Source: a virus (taxonomy: Duplodnaviria; Heunggongvirae; Uroviricota; Caudoviricetes). Taken from it: DNA of 7,450 nucleotides. Location of the stretch: the IMG/VR virus record IMGVR_UViG_2531839581_000012; one strand, written 5' to 3'. The translations under genes were made by a program, and so were the position numbers. Positions 2 through 7,450 of the stretch are shown here, one piece after another. A model generated the notes under the pieces. The model had not been told where the DNA came from. It worked only from the letters and a program-made list of their open reading frames with translations, and did no database searches. The stretch's first letter is position 1, and each line of letters starts with the position of its first letter.

Positions 2-340
2 AAAGCGTATTTCGAGCTGGGAATGACGTTCCCGGAACTGTATGACGACAGCCATCCGGAAGCCCTGGCTCGCAATACCCAGAAAATTTTCCGCTGGGTA
101 GAGAAAGACACCCCTGATGCAGTTGAAAAAATTCAGGCGTTGTTACCAGCGATCGAAAAGGCAATGCCACCTTTGCTGGTGGCCAGAATGCGCAGCCACA
201 GTTCAGCTTATTTTCGGGAGCTGGTGGAGACGCGGGAGCGACTGGTGAGAGACGCTGATGATTTTGTCGCAGTGGCAATCGCCGGTTTCAATCAGATGAA
301 CCGTGGTGGCCCGGCAGGAAATGCTGTGGCAGTACATTGA
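2..340 (+). CDS. 3' end of an upstream phage early-region protein (5'-truncated by the window edge); function not recognised
   Basis: The reading frame is open from the first full codon at nt 2 (KAYFELGMTFPELYDD...) through the TGA at 338-340; the ATG at 23 in the ORF track is internal to this frame. Composition is GC-rich like the rest of the phage backbone. It lies directly upstream of the replication initiator, where lambdoid genomes carry early regulatory genes. No motif was recognised. Confidence 0.45.
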   Translation, partial: KAYFELGMTFPELYDDSHPEALARNTQKIFRWVEKDTPDAVEKIQALLPAIEKAMPPLLVARMRSHSSAYFRELVETRERLVRDADDFVAVAIAGFNQMNRGGPAGNAVAVH

Positions 341-411
341 CTGACAATAGCCATATCGAATCGCTTCCGGCAACTCGTGAGTAAAAAGATTCGGTATCAG
401 AAGAGGTGAGT

Positions 412-1482
412 ATGGCTAACGCTTGGCTCAGATTATGGCATGACATGCCAAATGACCCTAAGTGGCGAACAATTGCCAGGGTGTCAGGGCAGCCAATTGC
501 AACAGTGATGGCAGTGTATATCCACCTCCTGGTGAGCGCGTCACGAAATGTCACGCGAGGTCACATTGATGTCACGACAGAAGATTTGGCAAGTGCGCTC
601 GACGTGACAGAAGAGGTAATTGATTCAATTTTGCAGACGATGCAGGGGCGGGTACTTGATGGTGATTTAATCACTGGATGGGAAAAACGCCAGGTGCTTA
701 AAGAGGACAACGGCAATATTTCGCAAACCGCAAAATCTCCTGCAGAGCGCAAGAGGGCGCAGCGAGAGAGGGAAAGAAAGCGGGAACAAAATGGCAATTG
801 TCACGGCGCGTCACGAAATGTCACGCACATGTCACGACGAGTCACGACAGATAAAGATACAGATAAAGATACAGATCAAGAAGATCAAAACACTATGGTC
901 CATGGCGTAAAAAACGCCACGAACCAGGCAGGGGATGTTCAGACCGTCAATCTTGGTCAGCCAGCAGGCACGACACCGGAAGCCGATTCAGCGTATGCGC
1001 TGAAAGCCGATTCGGGCGCTGTGCAGCAGGTGATGACCGCAAGGGCGGAGCAATCACACCAACTGCAGCAGCCTGAAGCCGATTCCGCCATTCAGCGGGA
1101 AGCCGATCGGGTAGTCCCGGAAAACACCGGGCAGTCTGTGGGACGAGTGGATTATCCGGATGTGTTCGAACAGGTCTGGCGGGAGTACCCGTTGCGTGCT
1201 GGGGCAAACCCGAAGAAATCCGCTTTCAGTGCCTGGAAGGCCAGATTACGCGAGGGGGTGCCACCAGAGGCCATGCTGGATGGCGTGAGGCGTTACGCAA
1301 GATACTTGGCGGCTACCGGGAAAACGGGAACGGAATTTGTTCAGCGAGCGACGACGTTTTTTGGACCGGACCGGAATTTTGAGAACCCCTGGTTGCTCCC
1401 GGTAAGCGGCACGAACAACCAGCGTTGTGTGAATCATATTTCTGAACCGGATAACGAAATTCCGCCGGGCTTCAGGGGGTAA
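412..1482 (+). CDS. Phage replication initiator / replisome-organiser protein with iterons embedded in its own gene
   Basis: The ORF track gives 406..1482 starting at GTG; an ATG at 412 lies 5 nt after AAGAGG (401-406) and is the preferred start. The N-terminal ~120 aa (WLRLWHDMPNDPKW...AVYIHLLVSAS) resembles the winged-helix N-domain of phage replisome-organiser proteins. A basic linker follows (ERKRAQRERERKRE). The C-terminal ~110 aa (DYPDVFEQVWREYPLRAG...FVQRATTFFGPD) resembles the conserved C-terminal domain of enterobacterial prophage initiators (DnaT-like or DUF1376-type, family assignment uncertain). Two iteron clusters sit inside the gene, as with lambda O and ori-lambda. Confidence 0.7.
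   Translation: MANAWLRLWHDMPNDPKWRTIARVSGQPIATVMAVYIHLLVSASRNVTRGHIDVTTEDLASALDVTEEVIDSILQTMQGRVLDGDLITGWEKRQVLKEDNGNISQTAKSPAERKRAQRERERKREQNGNCHGASRNVTHMSRRVTTDKDTDKDTDQEDQNTMVHGVKNATNQAGDVQTVNLGQPAGTTPEADSAYALKADSGAVQQVMTARAEQSHQLQQPEADSAIQREADRVVPENTGQSVGRVDYPDVFEQVWREYPLRAGANPKKSAFSAWKARLREGVPPEAMLDGVRRYARYLAATGKTGTEFVQRATTFFGPDRNFENPWLLPVSGTNNQRCVNHISEPDNEIPPGFRG
536..608 (+). repeat. Iteron cluster 1 of the putative replication origin
   Basis: TCACG/TCACA motifs start at 541, 551, 561 and 572, spaced 10-11 bp (about one helical turn), with an inverted copy CGTGAC at 602-607. The 21-mer GCGCGTCACGAAATGTCACGC at 536-556 recurs exactly at 806-826. Confidence 0.65.
801..846 (+). repeat. 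Iteron cluster 2 of the putative replication origin
   Basis: Five TCACG copies start at 801, 811, 821, 832 and 842 with 10-11 bp periodicity. The cluster contains the exact 21-mer shared with cluster 1 (806-826). Confidence 0.7.
851..890 (+). repeat. AT-rich tandem repeat next to the iterons; candidate DNA-unwinding element
   Basis: GATAAAGATACA occurs twice in tandem (851-862, 863-874), followed by GATCAAGAAGATCAAAAC with two GATC sites (874-877, 883-886). It lies immediately 3' of iteron cluster 2 and encodes the acidic low-complexity stretch DKDTDKDTDQEDQ. Confidence 0.5.
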
Positions 1483-1522
1483 GTGTTAATTTCTGGTCAT
1501 GAGGTAATTTTCAGGAGGGCTT

Positions 1523-1954
1523 GTGGCAAAAGTTTTTACACAAGAAGAGCGGGAAAAAATTAAAGGGCAGGTTCTTGAACTCGTACGCCAGAGTGGGCGC
1601 GAGACGTTACGACAACTGGAAGCTAAAACTGGGGCAACAAGATATCTGATGAGCGTTCTGGCCAGAGAGCTGGTTGCCAGTGGCGATGTATACAATTCTG
1701 GCTACGGGTTATTCCCGTCTGAACAGGCTCGTAAAGACTGGCAAAATGCCCGCAAAAAATTATCGAGGGCAAAGCTGAAGAAACCGGTTGTGGTTGATCC
1801 GGACCTTATCTGGTCATTACCAGACGGAGAAATACGCCGCTACGACAGGCGTCTGAACATAATCTGTCGCGAGTGCCGGAAGAGCGAAGTTATGCAGCGT
1901 GTGCTGGCGTTTTATCAGAATGGTTTTCGAGAGAGGCTTGGAGATCAGGGATGA
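1523..1954 (+). CDS. Hypothetical small basic phage protein (143 aa)
   Basis: GTG start at 1523 is preceded by AGGAGGG (1513-1519). Composition is GC-rich and backbone-like. The protein is basic and carries a CRECRK motif. No family was recognised. Its stop (TGA 1952-1954) overlaps an ATG at 1951. Confidence 0.55.
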   Translation: MAKVFTQEEREKIKGQVLELVRQSGRETLRQLEAKTGATRYLMSVLARELVASGDVYNSGYGLFPSEQARKDWQNARKKLSRAKLKKPVVVDPDLIWSLPDGEIRRYDRRLNIICRECRKSEVMQRVLAFYQNGFRERLGDQG

Positions 1955-2172
1955 ATAGAACGATGAAGGATGGAAGCTACATATTCTCGGTACTAAGATT
2001 TATTTTTCTGACACAAAATGACCATTTGGCGTTACATAATCCCAAAAAAACGTATCAAAAATCTCAAAATGCGTTACGATTAGAGAGTATTTTGATTCTG
2101 CGTGCTCATTTTTTGATTGCTGTGGCTTTTTGTTGTGGGAGTGTTGAATGGATTATTTATCAGAAGTGTTAA
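1951..2172 (+). CDS. Candidate small hydrophobic ORF (74 aa) bridging the phage backbone and the ATPase gene; may be spurious
   Basis: ATG at 1951 overlaps the upstream stop (ATGA) and is preceded by GGAGA (1940-1944). The product MNRTMKDGSYIFSVLRFIFL...ILILRAHFLIAVAFCCGSVEWIIYQKC has a hydrophobic C-terminal half. The ORF lies wholly in AT-rich sequence, where hydrophobic ORFs arise by chance, and overlaps the ATPase start by 25 nt. Confidence 0.2.
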   Translation: MNRTMKDGSYIFSVLRFIFLTQNDHLALHNPKKTYQKSQNALRLESILILRAHFLIAVAFCCGSVEWIIYQKC

Positions 2173-3302
2173 AAATCATTGAAGGTGCAACAAAGGCAAA
2201 TGCTTCGATGGCTAGTAATTATGCTGGGTTGCTGGCAGATAAGCTCGAACAAAAAGGGGAGGTCAAGCAAGCCAGAATGATAAGAGAAAGGTTGCTTAGA
2301 GCTCCCCAGGCGTTGGCAGGAGCTCAAAGGGCTGGAGGTGGGATATCTCTGGGCTCATTACCGGTAGATATTGATAGTCGACTCAACACTGTTGATGTCA
2401 GTTATCCTAAATTAGACAGTTCAGAGATTTTTCTGCCTGCAGCAATCAGTACCCGTGTTGAAGAGTTTATCACTAATGTTCAACGTTATGATGAGTTTGT
2501 TAAAGCTGATGCAGCATTGCCGAGTCGTATGCTCGTGTATGGAAAGCCAGGAACAGGTAAGACTATGTTATCTAAGTACATCGCTACCCGCTTAGATTTT
2601 CCACTTCTTACAGTGCGTTGCGATACTTTGATTAGTAGTTTATTGGGACAAACCAGCAAAAATCTTAGACAGGTTTTCGATTATGTAATGCAGAGGCCAT
2701 CAGTGCTTTTTTTAGACGAATTTGATGCTTTAGCTGGAGCAAGAGGTAATGAGAGAGATATAGGTGAGCTTCAGCGAGTTGTCATTTCACTATTGCAGAA
2801 TATGGATGCGGCATCAGAGGATACGGTAATTATTGCCTCAACTAACCATGAGCAACTTCTGGATCCTGCAATCTGGAGGCGATTTAGCTTCAGAATTCCA
2901 ATGCCTCTGCCTGACATACATCAGAGAGAGTTAATTTGGAAAAATCGTTTAAAGAATATGATATGTAGCGATCTAGATTTAAGTGATTTATCAAGAAAAT
3001 CGGAGGGATTATCCGGAGCAATAATTGAACAGGTGAGCTTGGATGCACGTAGGGATGCAGTTATTGAAGGTGCAAGTGTGATAAATCACCATAAATTGTA
3101 TAGGCGTTTGTATCTTGCGCAATCGCTTATGGAAGGTGTAAATTTAAGCACTTACGAAGATGAAATTCGTTGGTTACGTTCTAAAGATAAAAAATTATTT
3201 TCTATCAGAGTTCTTGCTAATTTGTACAAACTTACATCAAGAGTAATTTCAAACATTCTGAAGGAGTCAGGAGCATATGAGCAGAAGGGGTACACAGTTT
3301 AG
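2148..3302 (+). CDS. Classic-clade AAA+ ATPase (384 aa) with a C-terminal helix-turn-helix-like segment; IetA-like by architecture
   Basis: ATG at 2148 follows GGGAG (2137-2141) at 6-nt spacing and an in-frame TGA at 2145-2147. Walker A is GKPGTGKT (G132-T139, nt 2541-2564). Walker B is VLFLDEFD (D190/E191, nt 2715-2720). Sensor-1 and second region of homology read IIASTNHEQLLDPAIWRRFSF (N233, R244/R245), closely matching the canonical AAA pattern TN...LDPA...RRF. The C-terminal FSIRVLANLYKLTSRVISNILKE looks like an HTH. The stop (TAG 3300-3302) overlaps the downstream gene by 26 nt. Confidence 0.85.
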   Translation: MDYLSEVLKIIEGATKANASMASNYAGLLADKLEQKGEVKQARMIRERLLRAPQALAGAQRAGGGISLGSLPVDIDSRLNTVDVSYPKLDSSEIFLPAAISTRVEEFITNVQRYDEFVKADAALPSRMLVYGKPGTGKTMLSKYIATRLDFPLLTVRCDTLISSLLGQTSKNLRQVFDYVMQRPSVLFLDEFDALAGARGNERDIGELQRVVISLLQNMDAASEDTVIIASTNHEQLLDPAIWRRFSFRIPMPLPDIHQRELIWKNRLKNMICSDLDLSDLSRKSEGLSGAIIEQVSLDARRDAVIEGASVINHHKLYRRLYLAQSLMEGVNLSTYEDEIRWLRSKDKKLFSIRVLANLYKLTSRVISNILKESGAYEQKGYTV

Positions 3303-5541
3303 TAACGCAAAAGTTACAAACCCAATGTTAAGAATCCCTTTTTCCAGTAGTGACTTGGGTGCAATAGTAAACGCTGGCGGTGGGGCAAAGGTATTGGTTG
3401 ATGTAACAGCCGAATATAGACAAGGGCTAGTAAGAAATTTAACAACCAGTAAACATTATTTAGAATCCAAACTTTCAGAGTACCCTGGAAGCTTGGGTAC
3501 TTTGGTTTTCAAATTAAAAGACCAGGGAATAGCCAAAACGCATAGGCCGAACAAAATTGCTCAAGAGGCTGGATTGCAAAATGCCGGTCATGCCAAAATA
3601 GATGAAATGTTGGTTGCTGCTCATGCCGGCTGTTTTGACGTATTAGAGTCAGTCATTTTACATCGGAATATTAAAGCGATTTTGGCTAATCTAAGCGCGA
3701 TTGAGCGCATTGAACCTTGGGATGAGAATAGGAAGGTTCCAGGAGGCACTGATGGTTTGTTTGAATCATCAAACATCCTTGTACGACTATTTGAGTACAC
3801 AGGTGAAGATGCAACTTACAACAACTATGAAAACGTTATTTCTATATTAGAACAACACGGAGTTAAATATGATGAGATTAGACCAAAATGTGGTCTTCCC
3901 TTATTAAGGATAATGGATTTATCCCCAAATGATAGATATATATTAGACATTCTCATTGATTACCCGGGTATAAGAACGTTAATTCCAGAACCAAAATATT
4001 CAGCATTCCCGGTTAGTGTAAGTGATTCTGTTGGCATTGAAACAAATAGCTTTCCCGTACCATCAGAAGAATTACCCATTGTTGCTGTATTTGACACTGG
4101 GGTAAGCCCCATCGCGGCAACAATTACTCCTTGGGTAGTGAGTAGGGAAACATACGTAATTCCTCCTGATACGAGTTATGAACATGGGACTATGGTGTCT
4201 TCATTGATATCAGGCGCTCATTTTTTAAATGACAATCATCCATGGATTCCTGATACAAAATCTAAAATCCATGATGTTTGTGCTTTAGATGGAAATGGAT
4301 CTTATATATCAGATTTAATTCTGAGGCTAGCAGATGCTGTAAATAAAAGACCAGATATAAAAGTCTGGAATTTGTCTTTGGGAGGCGGACCATGTAATGA
4401 GCAGATGTTTAGTGATTTTGCGATGGAGTTAGATCGGCTCAGCGATAAATTTGGTATTTTGTTTGTAGTTGCTGCAGGTAATTATGTAGATGAACCTATA
4501 CGTACATGGCCAAATCCTGATCCGCTTGGAGGTGCTGATTTAATTTCCTCTCCTGGAGAGTCAGTCCGAGCACTAACAGTTGGTTCAGTTTCTCATATGG
4601 AAGCTAATGATGCTTTAAGTGAAATTGGAACACCGACACCATATACTCGTCGTGGCCCTGGGCCTGTATTTACTCCAAAGCCAGATATAATCCATGCTGG
4701 CGGTGGGGTTCATAGACCTTGGAATGTAGGAGCAAGCAGTTTAAAGGTCGTAGGGCCAGATAATAGGCTTTGCTCTAATTTTGGTACTAGTTTTGCTGCT
4801 CCAATTGTGGCAAGTTTAGCTGCGCATACATGGCAGAGAATAGCCACTAATTCAGACTTTAATGTTTCACCATCATTGATTAAAGCATTATTAATTCATT
4901 CCGCTCAATTATCTTCTCCTGATTACTCGCCAAGTGAAAGACGCTATTTGGGAGCGGGAATTCCTAATGAGGTTATTGAGACCTTATATGATAGTGATGA
5001 TAGGTTTACTCTGATTTTCCAAACATTCTTGGTTCCTGGGGTGAGGTGGAGAAAGGAAAACTATCCCATACCATCGGCACTTATTCAAAATGGAAAATTT
5101 AAAGGTGAGATTGTAATTACTGCTGCATATGCACCACCACTGAACTCTAATGCCGGCAGTGAATATGTTCGCGCGAACGTAGAGCTAAGTTTTGGCTTAA
5201 TTGAGAATAATACTATAAAAGGAAAAGTACCTATGGAAGGAGAAAACGGTCAATCTGGATATGAGAGAGCTCAAATTGAGCATGGTGGAAAGTGGTCACC
5301 AGTAAAAATTCATCGCAAGGCATTTAATAAAGGAATTACTTCGGGTAACTGGGCTCTTCAAGCTAAAACAACGTTGAGAGCGAATGAACCGGCCTTAATG
5401 GAGCCTTTACCTGTAACTATTGTAGTAACTTTAAAATCATTAGATGGAAACACACAAGTTTATGCTGATGGCGTAAGAGCTTTAAATGCTAATAACTGGG
5501 CTCACTATCCATTGCCTGCTCGTGTGCCAGTTTCCGTATAA
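3277..5541 (+). CDS. S8/subtilase-family serine protease (754 aa), probably cytoplasmic, with large N- and C-terminal extensions; IetS-like by architecture
   Basis: ATG at 3277 is preceded by AAGGAG (3261-3266) and AGGAG (3269-3273). The catalytic triad is in canonical subtilase order with signature contexts: Asp in VAVFDTGVS (D273, nt 4093-4095), His in YEHGTMVS (H303, nt 4183-4185), Ser in GTSFAAP (S505, nt 4789-4791). The oxyanion-hole Asn lies in VVAAGN (N402). The N-terminus MSRRGTQFSNAKV has no hydrophobic signal peptide. About 265 aa precede the catalytic core and about 180 aa follow it. Confidence 0.85.
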   Translation: MSRRGTQFSNAKVTNPMLRIPFSSSDLGAIVNAGGGAKVLVDVTAEYRQGLVRNLTTSKHYLESKLSEYPGSLGTLVFKLKDQGIAKTHRPNKIAQEAGLQNAGHAKIDEMLVAAHAGCFDVLESVILHRNIKAILANLSAIERIEPWDENRKVPGGTDGLFESSNILVRLFEYTGEDATYNNYENVISILEQHGVKYDEIRPKCGLPLLRIMDLSPNDRYILDILIDYPGIRTLIPEPKYSAFPVSVSDSVGIETNSFPVPSEELPIVAVFDTGVSPIAATITPWVVSRETYVIPPDTSYEHGTMVSSLISGAHFLNDNHPWIPDTKSKIHDVCALDGNGSYISDLILRLADAVNKRPDIKVWNLSLGGGPCNEQMFSDFAMELDRLSDKFGILFVVAAGNYVDEPIRTWPNPDPLGGADLISSPGESVRALTVGSVSHMEANDALSEIGTPTPYTRRGPGPVFTPKPDIIHAGGGVHRPWNVGASSLKVVGPDNRLCSNFGTSFAAPIVASLAAHTWQRIATNSDFNVSPSLIKALLIHSAQLSSPDYSPSERRYLGAGIPNEVIETLYDSDDRFTLIFQTFLVPGVRWRKENYPIPSALIQNGKFKGEIVITAAYAPPLNSNAGSEYVRANVELSFGLIENNTIKGKVPMEGENGQSGYERAQIEHGGKWSPVKIHRKAFNKGITSGNWALQAKTTLRANEPALMEPLPVTIVVTLKSLDGNTQVYADGVRALNANNWAHYPLPARVPVSV

Positions 5542-5554
5542 CAACTATATAAAT

Positions 5555-5584
5555 CAAACCCGCTGTAGCGGGTTTGATTTATTT
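5555..5584 (+). terminator. Rho-independent terminator closing the ATPase-protease operon
   Basis: A perfect 10-bp inverted repeat CAAACCCGCT / AGCGGGTTTG (5555-5564 and 5567-5576) with a short loop is followed by the T-rich tract ATTTATTTG. It starts 14 nt after the protease stop codon (TAA 5539-5541). Confidence 0.7.
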
Positions 5585-5870
5585 GTGGGTGTGTTTTATA
5601 AAAATACCGCCCATACACAACAAAATACAAAAAGTATTACAGATAAAAAAGGAGCGTAATGTGCAGATTTGTTGTTTTCCATATTTACTCACCTTAATAT
5701 GATTAATCCCGATAAGATTGTTATTTCAGCGGTTTTCAAATGAAATATTATGCTAATTTGGCAGATTTGCATAACATTAAAATTTAATTTATCTAACCGC
5801 TTTTAATAATAAGCGTTGTATTTTTATCCCAGCAATCTGTTGTTTGGTTTTTATTCCATTAAGGTGGGGC

Positions 5871-5898
5871 TTTACACTGGAGCCAGTTTATTTATACT
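5871..5898 (+). promoter_or_regulatory. Candidate sigma70-type promoter for the downstream nin-like gene chain
   Basis: TTTACA (5871-5876), a 16-nt spacer, then TATACT (5893-5898). It sits at the 3' end of a ~300-bp AT-rich non-coding spacer, about 50 nt upstream of the ATG at 5950. This is a consensus-like match only, with no experimental support. Confidence 0.3.
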
Positions 5899-5949
5899 TC
5901 ATACGTCAGCCTGAACAACTGGCACCTGCTGCGCCAGCAGAGAAAACAG

Positions 5950-6228
5950 ATGGCGCACGATACCAAATTTTACAATTCGGATAACTCTGCCGCCCCTGCC
6001 AGCAGGCACGGGCGGCGTTCTCATGCATTCAAATCTGACTGGTATCAGCACGACCCCTGCACCGAAGAACAGGCTGAATGGCTCATTCAGTGTTACCGCG
6101 GGCGCGGATGCGAGGTTAAAAAAGCCCTTAGCCTCGACTACCGTCACTGGATAATCTCCGTCAGGCTCCCTTACTCAGAACGGCCAGCGCGTCCGTCCCG
6201 CACATTCCAGCAACGGATCTGGAGGTAA
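5950..6228 (+). CDS. Hypothetical phage nin-region protein (92 aa)
   Basis: ATG at 5950 is the only start in its open frame, and the ribosome-binding site is weak. The stop (TAA 6226-6228) is followed directly by the next gene's GTG at 6230. It is first in a chain of tightly packed + strand genes with GC-rich phage-backbone composition. No family was recognised. Confidence 0.4.
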   Translation: MAHDTKFYNSDNSAAPASRHGRRSHAFKSDWYQHDPCTEEQAEWLIQCYRGRGCEVKKALSLDYRHWIISVRLPYSERPARPSRTFQQRIWR

Positions 6229-6229
6229 T

Positions 6230-6649
6230 GTGCGGGTATTACTTCGATCTGTTCTGGTACCGGAACTCGGTCTGGTTATCGTTAAGCCAGGCCGTGAATC
6301 AATGTCAGCATTCCATAACGGCAGAATACTGGTGGAGCCGGAACCAAAAAGCATGCGTAATCTGCCGTCCGGGGTCGTTCCTGCCGCTCGCCAGCCGCTG
6401 GTGGAAGACAAAACATTGCTGCCGTTTTTCAGCAACGAACGGGTGATTCGTGCTGCTGGTGGCGCTGGCGCATTGTCTGACTGGTTACTGCGCCATGTTA
6501 AATCCTGCCAGTGGCCCAGGGATTACACACAGGAAACCGTCATCACGTTAGGTCGGCGCATGGTGTTGTGCTGGCACTGGACAACCAGTTGCGTGACCAG
6601 CCTCGAATCACTTGAGCAACTTGCTCACCAAAACTGTCAGCATGGATGA
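6230..6649 (+). CDS. Hypothetical phage nin-region protein (139 aa)
   Basis: GTG at 6230 is preceded by GGAGG (6221-6225), though the spacing is short. Its stop overlaps the downstream start in an ATGA arrangement (6646-6649), which suggests translational coupling and supports a real gene. No family was recognised. Confidence 0.45.
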   Translation: MRVLLRSVLVPELGLVIVKPGRESMSAFHNGRILVEPEPKSMRNLPSGVVPAARQPLVEDKTLLPFFSNERVIRAAGGAGALSDWLLRHVKSCQWPRDYTQETVITLGRRMVLCWHWTTSCVTSLESLEQLAHQNCQHG

Positions 6650-7272
6650 TTGACGTCATCCGTCACGCAATCAGCGGTACGCAGGAGAGGGAGTTATCGC
6701 TGGCCGAATTATCCTGGTGGGCGGTCTGCAATCAGGTGGCTGATGCGCTTCCGGAGTCTGTATCGTGTCGTTCACTGGGATTACCGGTGGAAAAAATCCG
6801 CTCCGTATACCGTGAGAGTGACATCGTACCGGGAGAACAGACTGCCACCAGCATACTGAAGCAGCGCACAAAAAATATTGCGCTGCCACTTCACGCCCAC
6901 CAGCAACAGCCCCCACTCCAGGAAAAGACGTTAGTAAGCATCGCCGTTGATCCGGAGTCTCCGGCTCAGTATCTCCAGCGCCAGAAACCACAACGGGAAG
7001 AGATGCCTGTATACACGCGCTGGGTAAAAACGCAGAAATGCATGACGTGCGGTAATCAGGCAGATGATCCGCATCACATCATTGGTCATGGCCTGGGAGG
7101 TATGGGAACAAAGGCTGATGATTTGTTTGTTATTCCGCTGTGCCGTAAATGTCATAACGAACTGCACGCCGGGGTAAAAGATTTTGAAGAAAAATACGGC
7201 AGCCAGCTGTTGTTGCTGATTCGTTTTTTAATGCACGCGAGAAATTCGGGTGTCCTGAAGTGGAAAGCATGA
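6646..7272 (+). CDS. Phage nin-region protein (208 aa) with a C-terminal Cys/His cluster; putative zinc-binding or HNH-like domain
   Basis: ATG at 6646 overlaps the upstream stop (ATGA). Its stop (TGA 7270-7272) abuts the ATG at 7273 of the rusA-like gene. The C-terminus reads CMTCGNQADDPHHIIGHGLGG...CRKCHNELH, a C-x2-C ... HH ... C-x2-C-H arrangement. It resembles conserved prophage proteins found next to rusA or Q; a DUF968-type assignment is possible but uncertain. Confidence 0.6.
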   Translation: MIDVIRHAISGTQERELSLAELSWWAVCNQVADALPESVSCRSLGLPVEKIRSVYRESDIVPGEQTATSILKQRTKNIALPLHAHQQQPPLQEKTLVSIAVDPESPAQYLQRQKPQREEMPVYTRWVKTQKCMTCGNQADDPHHIIGHGLGGMGTKADDLFVIPLCRKCHNELHAGVKDFEEKYGSQLLLLIRFLMHARNSGVLKWKA

Positions 7273-7450
7273 ATGACCGAACGCATAGAATTTGTTTTGC
7301 CTTACCCGCCAACGGTGAACACCTACTGGCGACGTCGTGTCAGCACATATTTTGTATCAAAAGCCGGTGAGCGTTATCGCCGTGATGTGGCGCTTATTGT
7401 TCGCCAGCAGCGGCTGAAATTAAACCTGTCCGGAAGGCTGGCGATAAAGG
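7273..7450 (+). CDS. rusA: RusA-family Holliday-junction resolvase, N-terminal part (3'-truncated by the window edge)
   Basis: ATG at 7273 directly follows the upstream stop. The translation MTERIEFVLPYPPTVNTYWRRRVSTYFVSKAGERYRRDVALIVRQQRLKLNLSGRLAIK matches the conserved N-terminal region of RusA proteins (LPWPPSxNxYY...VSxEGxxYRxxVA...), and the gene sits in the nin region where rusA is found in lambdoid prophages. It was not in the ORF track because no stop is reached within the window. Confidence 0.75.
   Translation, partial: MTERIEFVLPYPPTVNTYWRRRVSTYFVSKAGERYRRDVALIVRQQRLKLNLSGRLAIK

What the first reader, a model, noticed from the sequence alone, without database searches (positions are those of the whole stretch)
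1955..5900. Compositionally distinct cargo island inserted at the replication / nin junction of a lambdoid prophage
Phage backbone genes on both sides (replication initiator, nin-like chain, rusA) are GC-rich, while the ~3.9 kb between them is markedly AT-rich. It carries its own operon and terminator and is flanked by AT-rich non-coding DNA, which suggests horizontally acquired cargo rather than core phage functions. No convincing sigma70 promoter was found by eye in 1955-2147, and the upstream genes chain into the ATPase gene through overlapping start/stop codons. The module may therefore be transcribed by read-through from the phage early-right operon, which would be repressed in a lysogen, or from a non-canonical internal promoter. 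Which of these holds determines whether it acts in the lysogen or only on induction or infection.
Basis: partly seen in the sequence, partly recalled or inferred. Interest (0 to 1): 0.55.

Follow-up and report, generated by a model that had tools for sequence, protein, structure and literature searches.

The report
IetAS anti-phage cassette in prophage
The AT-rich block is real, but it is an already catalogued two-gene anti-phage system (IetA ATPase plus IetS protease) sitting in a well-used cargo slot of a Rac/Qin-type E. coli prophage, so it is an ordinary example of a known kind.

Summary
The compositional island is confirmed: 39% GC against 52-53% in the flanks, with likelihood breakpoints at 1910 and 5905. 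The cargo is ietA (2148-3302) and ietS (3277-5541). These match the IetAS defence/toxin-antitoxin system at equivalog level and are 100% identical to genes RefSeq already names iteA/iteS.

The backbone is a Rac/Qin-like lambdoid prophage: YdaT, replication organiser, DUF977 | cargo | Rem-like, DUF968/YdfU, RusA. 554 complete E. coli genomes carry the same flanks with other cargo, such as hokD and hypothetical genes. Only 78 of 5426 carry this ietAS. No target-site duplication or terminal repeats were found, so the swap looks like recombination within conserved flanks.

- The "chain of overlapping genes" depends on ORF 1951-2172, which is not conserved and is probably spurious.
- The right AT-rich flank (5594-5890) is not cargo. 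It is an unannotated backbone spacer found in 1184 genomes, with an invariant promoter-like site.
- No canonical sigma-70 promoter precedes ietA. However, a ~37-bp element (2044-2080) travels with ietAS into every context examined, including a non-phage island.

This favours a cassette-borne promoter or operator, plus read-through on induction. That part is inferred, not shown.

The parts
23..340 (+). 3' part of a YdaT-family gene (backbone, early-right operon); the gene starts before the window
   Evidence: Pfam YdaT_toxin 3.6e-10; the 426-nt homologue in relatives starts 86 nt left of the window
406..1482 (+). Replication organiser (O-like) gene of the backbone, with internal GTCACG iteron-like repeats at 540-578 and 800-848
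   Evidence: Annotated 'phage replisome organizer' or 'DNA replication protein O' in relatives; repeats
1523..1954 (+). DUF977 (lygF/ydaW-like) gene, last backbone gene before the cargo slot; its last 36 nt (1919-1954) belong to the swapped segment
   Evidence: Pfam DUF977 2.6e-28; homology to the cargo-less relative ends at 1918
1919..5593 (+). Segment specific to ietAS-carrying genomes: the real cargo, about 3.7 kb and about 39% GC
   Evidence: 1919-2147 and 2148-5541 each occur in only 78 of 5426 genomes; in the listed rows the widespread backbone spacer matches from query base 12-13, i.e. window 5594-5595
1951..2172 (+). Unconserved 73-codon ORF bridging DUF977 and ietA; judged spurious
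   Evidence: Not annotated by PGAP; interrupted by stops or frameshifts in L007, L027, L028, L061 and L063; no Pfam or PADLOC support
2044..2080 (+). Conserved cis element upstream of ietA: an A-tract followed by CGTATCAAAAATCTCAAAATGCGTTACGAT. It can be read as a weak sigma-70 promoter (GTATCA-N17-TACGAT) and/or an operator
   Evidence: 81-94% identical to four homologues (64% to L061), where ietA third-codon identity is 41-64%; homology with other contexts starts here; the pattern hits only ietA-carrying contigs plus one contig-end fragment in IMG/VR
2148..3302 (+). ietA (iteA): classical-clade AAA+ ATPase, the antitoxin/regulator component
   Evidence: PADLOC IetA 8.9e-143; NCBIfam IteA_antiphage 526.6 bits against a 510 cut-off; Walker A G132-T139, Walker B D190/E191, sensor N233, R244/R245; GGGAG Shine-Dalgarno 7 nt before the ATG
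3277..5541 (+). ietS (iteS): 754-aa S8 subtilisin-like serine protease, the effector/toxin component
   Evidence: PADLOC IetS 1e-299; NCBIfam IteS_antiphage 1038.5 bits against a 900 cut-off; Pfam Peptidase_S8 at 268-544; D273, H303, S505 and N365 motifs intact
5549..5582 (.). Intrinsic-terminator hairpin ending the ietAS operon (perfect 16-bp arms, 2-nt gap)
   Evidence: the same AAACCCGC/GCGGGTTT stem follows ietS in Citrobacter, Kosakonia and IMG/VR homologues, and also ends the hokD locus in other prophages
5594..5890 (+). AT-rich non-coding backbone spacer, not ietAS-specific. Contains a mini-ORF with a strong SD (ATG at 5660, MCRFVVFHIYSP) and a hairpin at 5798-5815
   Evidence: Present in 1184 of 5426 genomes at 73-100% identity, unannotated, lying between hokD or other cargo and the first nin-like gene
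5871..5898 (+). Promoter-like site TTTACA-N16-TATACT reading into the nin-like genes
   Evidence: 10 of 12 consensus matches; second-best PWM site on the + strand of the window; invariant in four spacer copies down to 74% identity; spacer-less relatives have TTGTTT-N18-TACAAT with the -10 in the aligned position
5891..5936 (+). Conserved junction sequence (..CAGCCTGAACAACTGGCACCTGCTGCGCC..) shared by all contexts; right recombination boundary of the slot
   Evidence: Homology to 813R8 starts at 5891, while homology to 683R6 (different downstream genes) ends at 5934
5950..6228 (+). Rem-like small gene (backbone)
   Evidence: 279-nt homologue upstream of DUF968 in relatives, labelled 'toxin to Rem' in one auto-annotated phage record; it occupies the position that rem holds upstream of ydfU in K-12 Qin. 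The Rem assignment rests on position and that label only; no direct comparison was run
6230..7272 (+). DUF968/YdfU gene (backbone), split here into two ORFs (6230-6649 and 6646-7272) by scattered small deletions at 6516-6634
   Evidence: Pfam DUF968 7.7e-64 on the distal ORF; intact 1059-nt gene in relatives; deletions shown
7273..7450 (+). 5' part of rusA (backbone), runs off the window
   Evidence: Aligned to RusA CDS 14644-15024 of L001

Best explanation
The block is a self-contained IetAS cassette. It consists of a conserved upstream control element, ietA (AAA+ ATPase), a translationally overlapping ietS (S8 serine protease) and an intrinsic terminator. It occupies the variable cargo slot between DUF977 and the Rem-like/DUF968/RusA/Q genes of a Rac/Qin-type lambdoid prophage.

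How it arrived: most likely by homologous or illegitimate recombination within conserved flanking sequences, replacing other cargo (typically hokD plus small genes). It did not arrive by transposition.

How it works, from the literature: IetS is the toxic protease effector and IetA restrains it. A phage protein made during infection releases the protease and the cell aborts the infection. The pair can also act as an addiction module.

How it is expressed, my inference at about 0.6: transcription starts at a weak, cassette-borne promoter or operator at 2044-2080, so the system is present in the lysogen. Because no terminator separates it from the early-right operon, it is also read through after induction.

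The backbone spacer downstream of the ietS terminator carries a conserved promoter-like site. This could restart transcription of the nin-like and Q genes.
For: Identity:
- PADLOC IetA 8.9e-143 and IetS 1e-299.
- NCBIfam equivalogs IteA and IteS, both above their curated cut-offs.
- 100% nucleotide identity to RefSeq-annotated iteA/iteS.
- Catalytic and ATPase motifs intact.

Cargo status:
- GC and GC3 discontinuity.
- 78 of 5426 genomes carry ietAS, whereas 554 carry both flanks with other cargo.
- Alternative cargos listed.
- The same cassette lies behind the replication module of other lambdoid backbones, in a Kosakonia/Phytobacter integrase island and free-standing in Aeromonas. It is AT-rich relative to its flanks in each of four such contexts.
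- No TSD or terminal repeats.

Own control region:
- The 36-nt element is 81-94% conserved in four homologues where synonymous sites are 45-64% identical.
- Homology begins at the element.
- The element is found only at ietA loci in IMG/VR.
- It is present where the nearest upstream co-directional gene is 1.4 kb away.

Read-through: no terminator-like site on the + strand before 4351.

Terminator.

Mechanism from papers:
- TA nature, essential protease, and an ietA mutant that could not be cloned (PMC13069673).
- Abortive infection triggered by a phage protein (bioRxiv 10.1101/2022.08.27.505566).
- Prophage location in E. coli (bioRxiv 10.1101/2022.08.21.504612).
Against: - The candidate promoter is weak (3/6 and 4/6 hexamer matches, 4.5 bits). 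On sequence alone it is indistinguishable from chance, and the intergenic region scores below shuffled controls.
- In the most distant homologue compared (L061) the element is only 64% identical, and the -10 loses its first T.
- In Aeromonas the arrangement is not recognisably the same.
- No transcript data were available.
- The element could equally be an operator, an mRNA leader or a binding site for something else.
- The molecular mechanism of IetAS is unknown in the literature.
- The Abi and trigger data come from a Bacillus cereus homologue, not this E. coli one.
- The terminator stem is a generic motif shared with the hokD locus, so whether it came with the cassette cannot be decided.
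Confidence: 0.85

Rival explanations
1. ietAS has no promoter of its own in this prophage. It is transcribed only as the distal part of the early-right (pR-like) operon, so it is silent in the lysogen and made only after induction or during infection by the phage itself.
For: No sigma-70-like site at the scan threshold in 1955-2147. The best PWM score in the region, 6.2 bits, is below the shuffle median of 8.5. No terminator-like site between the replication genes and ietA. Same strand and close spacing to DUF977.
Against: A conserved 36-nt element with -35/-10-like geometry moves with the cassette, and homology starts at it. The same cassette sits in a Kosakonia/Phytobacter island with a 1.4-kb gap upstream, and in Aeromonas behind a divergently oriented gene. 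It must self-express there. ietA has its own strong Shine-Dalgarno. Accessory loci of prophages are commonly expressed in lysogeny (PMC7067206, listed).
Confidence: 0.25
2. In this setting the pair works mainly as an addiction (toxin-antitoxin) module that stabilises the prophage, not as an anti-phage system.
For: IetAS was first described as a plasmid-stabilising TA pair, protease toxin plus ATPase antitoxin (cited in PMC13069673). The same slot carries classical TA modules elsewhere: relBE and hokD in K-12 Qin, hokD in many relatives.
Against: Defence by IetAS is reported in the papers read here (Gao et al. 2020 as cited; Wu et al.). The two roles are not exclusive. NCBI's equivalog model names both proteins anti-phage.
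Confidence: 0.15
3. The island was inserted by a transposon, IS or site-specific recombinase and should carry target-site duplications or terminal repeats.
For: Sharp compositional edges.
Against: No direct or inverted repeats pair the two ends. No transposase or integrase ORF is present in the island. Edges fall in sequences conserved among different prophages: inside the DUF977 3' end, and at a shared 44-nt junction. Different relatives break homology at different points (1514 or 1918 on the left; 5891 or 5934 on the right), as expected for mosaic recombination.
Confidence: 0.03
4. The low GC reflects ordinary variation in the phage backbone rather than foreign origin.
For: The adjacent spacer 5594-5890 is AT-rich yet belongs to the backbone.
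Against: The ietA and ietS coding regions have GC3 of 0.27-0.33 against 0.48-0.62 in backbone genes. They are absent from 554 genomes with the same flanks. They keep about 42-43% GC in four other host or flank contexts examined.
Confidence: 0.02

Closest known systems
IetAS (IetA/IetS; NCBI 'IteA/IteS') anti-phage / toxin-antitoxin system
   Same: Both proteins pass the curated equivalog cut-offs and the PADLOC models. Gene order, overlap, size and catalytic motifs match. The sequence is identical to RefSeq WP_000385105.1 and WP_000091104.1.
   Different: Nothing at the protein level. This study adds only the conserved upstream element and the exact slot and boundaries in this prophage type.
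Phage 'morons' (Juhala/Hendrix definition; Cumby et al. 2012, cited in PMC9122126)
   Same: An extra transcription unit between backbone genes. It is absent from close relatives, compositionally distinct and ended by an intrinsic terminator.
   Different: The defining upstream promoter is only inferred here from conservation. It does not match the sigma-70 consensus well.
Prophage-encoded defence hotspots (P2/P4 hotspots, Rousset et al. 2022, PMC9122126)
   Same: A fixed position between conserved phage genes holds interchangeable accessory or defence cargo.
   Different: This is a different phage family (Rac/Qin-type lambdoid) and a different slot (DUF977 | Rem-like/DUF968 or DUF1367). Apart from ietAS and TA genes (hokD, relBE), the alternative cargos tested gave no system-defining hit to known defence models, only generic HTH-type matches and one marginal LmuB hit.
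relBE-hokD cargo of the K-12 Qin cryptic prophage
   Same: It occupies the equivalent position just upstream of rem-ydfU-Q. It is also a toxin-antitoxin-type cargo.
   Different: The proteins are unrelated. K-12 Qin lacks the 300-nt AT-rich spacer.
ietHAS (helicase-containing IetAS variant, PMC13069673)
   Same: Shares the ATPase and protease core.
   Different: No SNF2 helicase gene is present in the window. The cassette here is the canonical two-gene form.

Membership tests
IetAS defence / TA system | AAA+ ATPase matching the IetA family model | tested here: met
   PADLOC PDLC02196 8.9e-143 over 1-374; NCBIfam NF042959 equivalog 526.6 bits against a 510 cut-off
IetAS defence / TA system | S8 subtilisin-like peptidase matching the IetS family model | tested here: met
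   PADLOC PDLC02197 1e-299; NCBIfam NF042956 equivalog 1038.5 bits against a 900 cut-off; Pfam Peptidase_S8
IetAS defence / TA system | The two genes adjacent and co-oriented, with ietA first | tested here: met
   2148-3302 and 3277-5541, same strand, 26-nt overlap; same layout in RefSeq
IetAS defence / TA system | Intact catalytic residues (Asp/His/Ser triad; Walker A/B) | tested here: met
   D273, H303, S505 (GTSFAAP), N365; GKPGTGKT at 132-139, LFLDE ending at 191, STN at 231-233, RR at 244-245
IetAS defence / TA system | Protects against phage; protease toxic without the ATPase | not testable with these tools
   Literature only: PMC13069673, bioRxiv 2022.08.27.505566, bioRxiv 2022.08.21.504612
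Phage moron | Absent from otherwise closely related phages at the same position | tested here: met
   813R8 and 554 genomes share both flanks with other cargo
Phage moron | Nucleotide composition distinct from neighbouring genes | tested here: met
   39% against 52-53% GC; GC3 0.27-0.33 against 0.48-0.62
Phage moron | Own promoter upstream | tested here: inconclusive
   No consensus promoter. A conserved element with GTATCA-N17-TACGAT geometry accompanies the cassette in all enterobacterial contexts. No transcript data.
Phage moron | Factor-independent terminator downstream | tested here: met
   16-bp perfect hairpin at 5549-5582; 5535-5600 folds at -26 kcal/mol, z = -5.9. This is a prediction only.
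Rac/Qin-type lambdoid prophage backbone | Gene order: immunity/YdaT, replication, DUF977, slot, Rem-like/DUF968, RusA, Q, lysis, with integrase at one end | tested here: met
   Pfam hits; the full context in TW10722 includes integrase, excisionase, exonuclease, dicB, Q, holin and lysozyme
Transposon / IS / integrative insertion | Target-site duplication or terminal inverted repeats, and a mobility gene | tested here: not met
   No end-pairing repeats; no transposase or integrase ORF in 1919-5890

The most novel reading that the evidence does not exclude
Two modest readings remain open.

(a) The 37-bp element at 2044-2080 is a dedicated, possibly IetA-autoregulated, promoter/operator. It would make IetAS a portable unit that is expressed in lysogens independently of phage repression.

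(b) The unannotated 300-nt AT-rich spacer (5594-5890) is present in about 22% of complete E. coli genomes. It carries an invariant promoter-like site, and spacer-less relatives carry a positionally equivalent one. It may be an uncharacterised insulator/restart module that re-initiates transcription of the nin-like and Q genes downstream of terminator-ended cargo in Rac/Qin-type prophages.
Probability: 0.4. Interest if true: 0.35.

Novelty: already known. Interest (0 to 1): 0.2.

Why it matters
The window shows a textbook case of how temperate phages carry and swap host-protective cargo. A known abortive-infection system sits in a recombination-prone slot between conserved genes.

Its practical value is limited to four points:
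- exact boundaries of the slot in Rac/Qin-type prophages;
- a short conserved non-coding element that could serve as a handle for studying how IetAS is regulated, since its mechanism and control remain unknown in the literature;
- an unannotated backbone spacer with a conserved promoter-like site that may matter for late-gene control in a common class of E. coli prophages;
- a correction that removes a spurious ORF from the picture.

None of this changes current understanding.

Tried and rejected
- Rfam scan of the whole window at E <= 1 found nothing relevant.
- RNAalifold on the ietA leader gave only a 7-pair stem at -3.3 kcal/mol, so a structured RNA leader has no support. The stem corresponds to an imperfect DNA inverted repeat, ACGTAT..ATGCGT.
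- I considered a C-terminal helix-turn-helix in IetA that might bind the element. AlphaFold2 gives three confident helices at 336-375. A single-sequence model of the domain collapsed into one helix. The idea is left as speculation.
- Visual checks for other sigma-factor or regulator consensus sequences (sigma-54, sigma-E, sigma-28, IHF, LexA, CRP) found no match. These were not tool-based.
- PDB sequence search found no solved IetS relative beyond generic subtilases, and only generic p97/Cdc48-type AAA+ matches for IetA.
- PADLOC on alternative cargo proteins from the same slot found no known defence system; the only hits were generic HTH-type models on the Evi regulator and one marginal LmuB hit.
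- The Gao et al. 2020 paper could not be retrieved. I therefore could not check whether the E. coli IetAS they tested was cloned with this upstream region.
- The protein-only scan of genome contigs returned a single locus. Diversity had to come from IMG/VR, metagenomes and the protein database.
- No empty slot (DUF977 joined directly to the junction) was seen among the 40 best flank matches.

Full report
**1. Observation**

The window shows a sharp compositional step.
- GC is 0.522 for 1-1918, 0.391 for 1919-5890 and 0.529 for 5891-7450.
- A two-breakpoint likelihood segmentation places the edges at 1910 and 5905.
- 100-bp bins inside and outside differ with Mann-Whitney p = 1.8e-11.
- Third-position GC is 0.33 (ietA) and 0.27 (ietS), against 0.48-0.62 for all backbone genes.

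The described feature is therefore real and well beyond chance.

**2. What the cargo is**

The two long ORFs are 2148-3302 (384 aa) and 3277-5541 (754 aa).
- They hit the PADLOC IetA and IetS models at 8.9e-143 and 1e-299.
- They hit Pfam AAA and Peptidase_S8.
- They pass the curated cut-offs of the NCBIfam equivalogs IteA_antiphage (526.6 against 510 bits) and IteS_antiphage (1038.5 against 900 bits).
- The 3.4-kb pair is 100% identical to a stretch RefSeq already annotates as iteA/iteS in E. coli TW10722. It occurs at 99% identity or more, in single copy and chromosomally, in 78 of 5426 complete E. coli genomes.
- ATPase and protease motifs are intact: Walker A GKPGTGKT (132-139), Walker B (D190/E191), sensor-1 N233, R244/R245, and the protease D273/H303/S505 with N365.
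- The genes overlap by 26 nt, and each has its own Shine-Dalgarno sequence.
- IetA's ATPase core is closest to p97/Cdc48 D2-type classical AAA+ modules. No IetAS structure is in the PDB by sequence.

**3. The backbone and the slot**

The flanking genes are YdaT (23-340), a replication organiser with internal iterons (406-1482), DUF977 (1523-1954), a Rem-like gene (5950-6228), DUF968/YdfU (6230-7272) and RusA (from 7273). In TW10722 the wider context is a Rac/Qin-type lambdoid prophage with integrase, excisionase, exonuclease, dicB, a repressor/Cro pair, Q, tRNAs and lysis genes.

Homology comparisons define the boundaries:
- Against the phage record vB_EcoS-813R8, which lacks ietAS, homology runs 1-1918 (98.1%) and 5891-7450 (91.4%), with 2.07 kb of other cargo between.
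- Against vB_EcoS-683R6, which has ietAS but different downstream genes, homology runs 1514-5934.

The boundaries therefore lie 36 nt inside the 3' end of DUF977 and in a 44-nt junction (5891-5934) shared by all contexts.

A query made of the two flanks alone finds both within 2.2 kb in 554 genomes, always with other cargo. Examples of that cargo:
- a reverse-strand 269-aa gene plus hokD;
- DUF7167 and small genes plus hokD in ETEC H10407;
- DUF5677 plus hokD;
- an HTH/cupin regulator plus a GNAT gene in phage Evi;
- relBE-hokD in K-12 Qin.

No repeats pair the island's ends, and no mobility gene is present. The cassette was therefore exchanged by recombination in conserved flanks, the usual way lambdoid mosaics form.

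**4. The right flank is not cargo**

The left part 1919-2147 occurs only in the 78 ietAS genomes. By contrast, 5583-5890 matches 1184 genomes at 73-100% identity, from about position 5594 onward, and is never annotated.

In those genomes it lies between hokD (or other cargo) and the first nin-like gene. That gene is either Rem-like/DUF968 or DUF1367/DUF1364/DUF1133.

Alignment of four copies down to 74% identity shows:
- an invariant TTTACA-N16-TATACT site (5871-5898), the second-best sigma-70 PWM site on the + strand of the window;
- a small hairpin at 5798-5815;
- a 9-12-codon mini-ORF behind a strong SD.

Relatives that lack the spacer have TTGTTT-N18-TACAAT with the -10 at the aligned position, just before the shared junction. 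I infer a conserved promoter reading into the nin-like and Q genes immediately after the slot. This is untested.

**5. Own promoter or read-through?**

PGAP does not call it. In the same relative frame it is interrupted in all five homologous loci. I treat it as spurious.

The consensus scan finds none in 1955-2147. A PWM scan gives a best score of 6.2 bits, below the median best score of shuffled sequence, 8.5. The scan also finds no terminator-like site on the + strand upstream of ietA. Read-through from the early-right operon is therefore expected after induction.

Divergent ietAS loci tell a further story. I compared:
- a Citrobacter prophage (84% nt identity in ietA),
- three IMG/VR prophages (about 70%),
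- a metagenome contig (69% aa),
- a Kosakonia/Phytobacter integrase island (86% aa).

In all of these, homology to the window begins at an A-tract at about 2043. It then runs through CGTATCAAAAATCTCAAAATGCGTTACGAT (2051-2080), 45-73 nt before the start codon. The element is 81-94% identical in four homologues where ietA third-codon positions are 45-64% identical. In the most distant homologue it is 64% against 41%.

The degenerate pattern hits 23 IMG/VR contigs. Twenty-two of them are the contigs that encode IetA, and the last is a contig-end fragment.

In the Kosakonia/Phytobacter island the nearest upstream co-directional gene is 1.4 kb away. In Aeromonas the upstream gene is divergent. The cassette must drive its own expression there.

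The element can be read as GTATCA-N17-TACGAT preceded by an A-tract. That would be a weak sigma-70 promoter, possibly overlapped by an imperfect inverted repeat (ACGTAT..ATGCGT).

I therefore favour, at about 0.6, a cassette-borne promoter or operator giving expression in the lysogen, supplemented by read-through on induction. Read-through only remains possible at about 0.25. Conservation is the only evidence. No transcript data were available.

**6. Mechanism**

The mechanism is taken from the literature and was not tested here.
- IetAS was first described as a plasmid-stabilising toxin-antitoxin pair, with a protease toxin and an ATPase antitoxin. It protects against phages, and the protease activity is required. 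An ietA-mutant construct could not be obtained. The molecular mechanism is still unknown (PMC13069673).
- A Bacillus cereus IetAS behaves as an abortive-infection system. It is triggered by a single phage protein of unknown function (SPbeta YosG), and the paper also groups ietAS with systems escaped via replication-machinery mutations (bioRxiv 10.1101/2022.08.27.505566).
- In E. coli, ietAS has already been noted as prophage-borne (bioRxiv 10.1101/2022.08.21.504612; PMC11267873).

The classical-clade AAA+ fold of IetA would be compatible with an unfoldase or chaperone-like restraint of IetS. That is inference.

**7. Comparison and novelty**

The locus meets every sequence-level criterion of IetAS. 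It also meets three of the four classical moron criteria; the promoter criterion is inconclusive. It fits the general concept of prophage defence hotspots (PMC9122126) and of accessory loci expressed in lysogeny (PMC7067206).

The system, its annotation and its prophage location are already known. The exact mosaic (this replication module plus ietAS plus this nin-like arm) is not in the 5426 complete genomes, where the best coverage is 84%. That is ordinary lambdoid shuffling.

The only new items are small:
- the conserved upstream element;
- the recognition that the right AT-rich flank is a widespread backbone spacer with a conserved promoter-like site;
- removal of a spurious ORF.

**8. Verdict**

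Novelty: already known. Interest: low (0.2).

Noticed in passing
window 6516-6634: Sixteen bases are missing in about nine scattered 1-3-nt deletions relative to three relatives that agree with each other. This splits the DUF968/YdfU gene (intact at 1059 nt elsewhere) into ORFs 6230-6649 and 6646-7272. The clustering looks more like local sequencing or assembly error than natural decay.
   Followed up: partly
window 5594-5890: An unannotated AT-rich non-coding spacer is present in 1184 of 5426 complete E. coli genomes (73-100% identity), between hokD or other cargo and the first nin-like gene. It contains a mini-ORF (ATG at 5660, MCRFVVFHIYSP; 9 codons in the most divergent copy) behind AAGGAG, a hairpin at 5798-5815 and an invariant TTTACA-N16-TATACT at 5871-5898. 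It is absent from K-12 Qin.
   Followed up: partly
window 5899-5936: A conserved junction, CAGCCTGAACAACTGGCACCTGCTGCGCC, is shared upstream of two unrelated first nin-like genes (Rem-like or DUF1367). It probably marks a recombination boundary and/or the start of the nin-operon transcript.
   Followed up: partly
window 540-578, 800-848 and 847-870: Iteron-like GTCACG repeats occur in two clusters inside the replication gene, likely the origin as in lambda O. A perfect tandem duplication of ACAGATAAAGAT encodes a repeated TDKD in the protein linker.
   Followed up: no
window 3141-3275 (IetA residues 336-375): The AlphaFold2 model gives a confident (pLDDT > 90) three-helix C-terminal module after the AAA+ lid. 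It is strongly conserved (FSLRxLAxLYxLSTRxIxNILKE) but matches no Pfam family or PDB sequence. A DNA-binding role is only a guess.
   Followed up: partly
L063 / L064 (Kosakonia/Phytobacter), ietAS at 6001-9394: An 86%-identical ietAS lies in a tyrosine-integrase island next to folD, together with a KAP NTPase gene, a pEK499_p136-family gene and IS fragments. This looks like a small defence island rather than a prophage.
   Followed up: no
L028 5130-6149; rows H14, H78, H80: Some copies appear to be decaying. In L028 the ietS ORF is truncated to 339 aa. An IS3 transposase is annotated under the match to the ietAS block in E. coli F2_81. In two genomes ietS is annotated as a generic 'S8 family peptidase' plus a hypothetical protein instead of iteS.
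   Followed up: no
L007 3868-4628; L027 3359-3778; L028 3459-3668: In each lambdoid context examined, a gene for a small winged-helix-type protein (DUF977, PerC-like or IclR-like HTH) lies shortly upstream of the ietAS slot. A regulatory role at the slot was considered, but the Kosakonia/Phytobacter island keeps the ietA upstream element without any such gene.
   Followed up: partly
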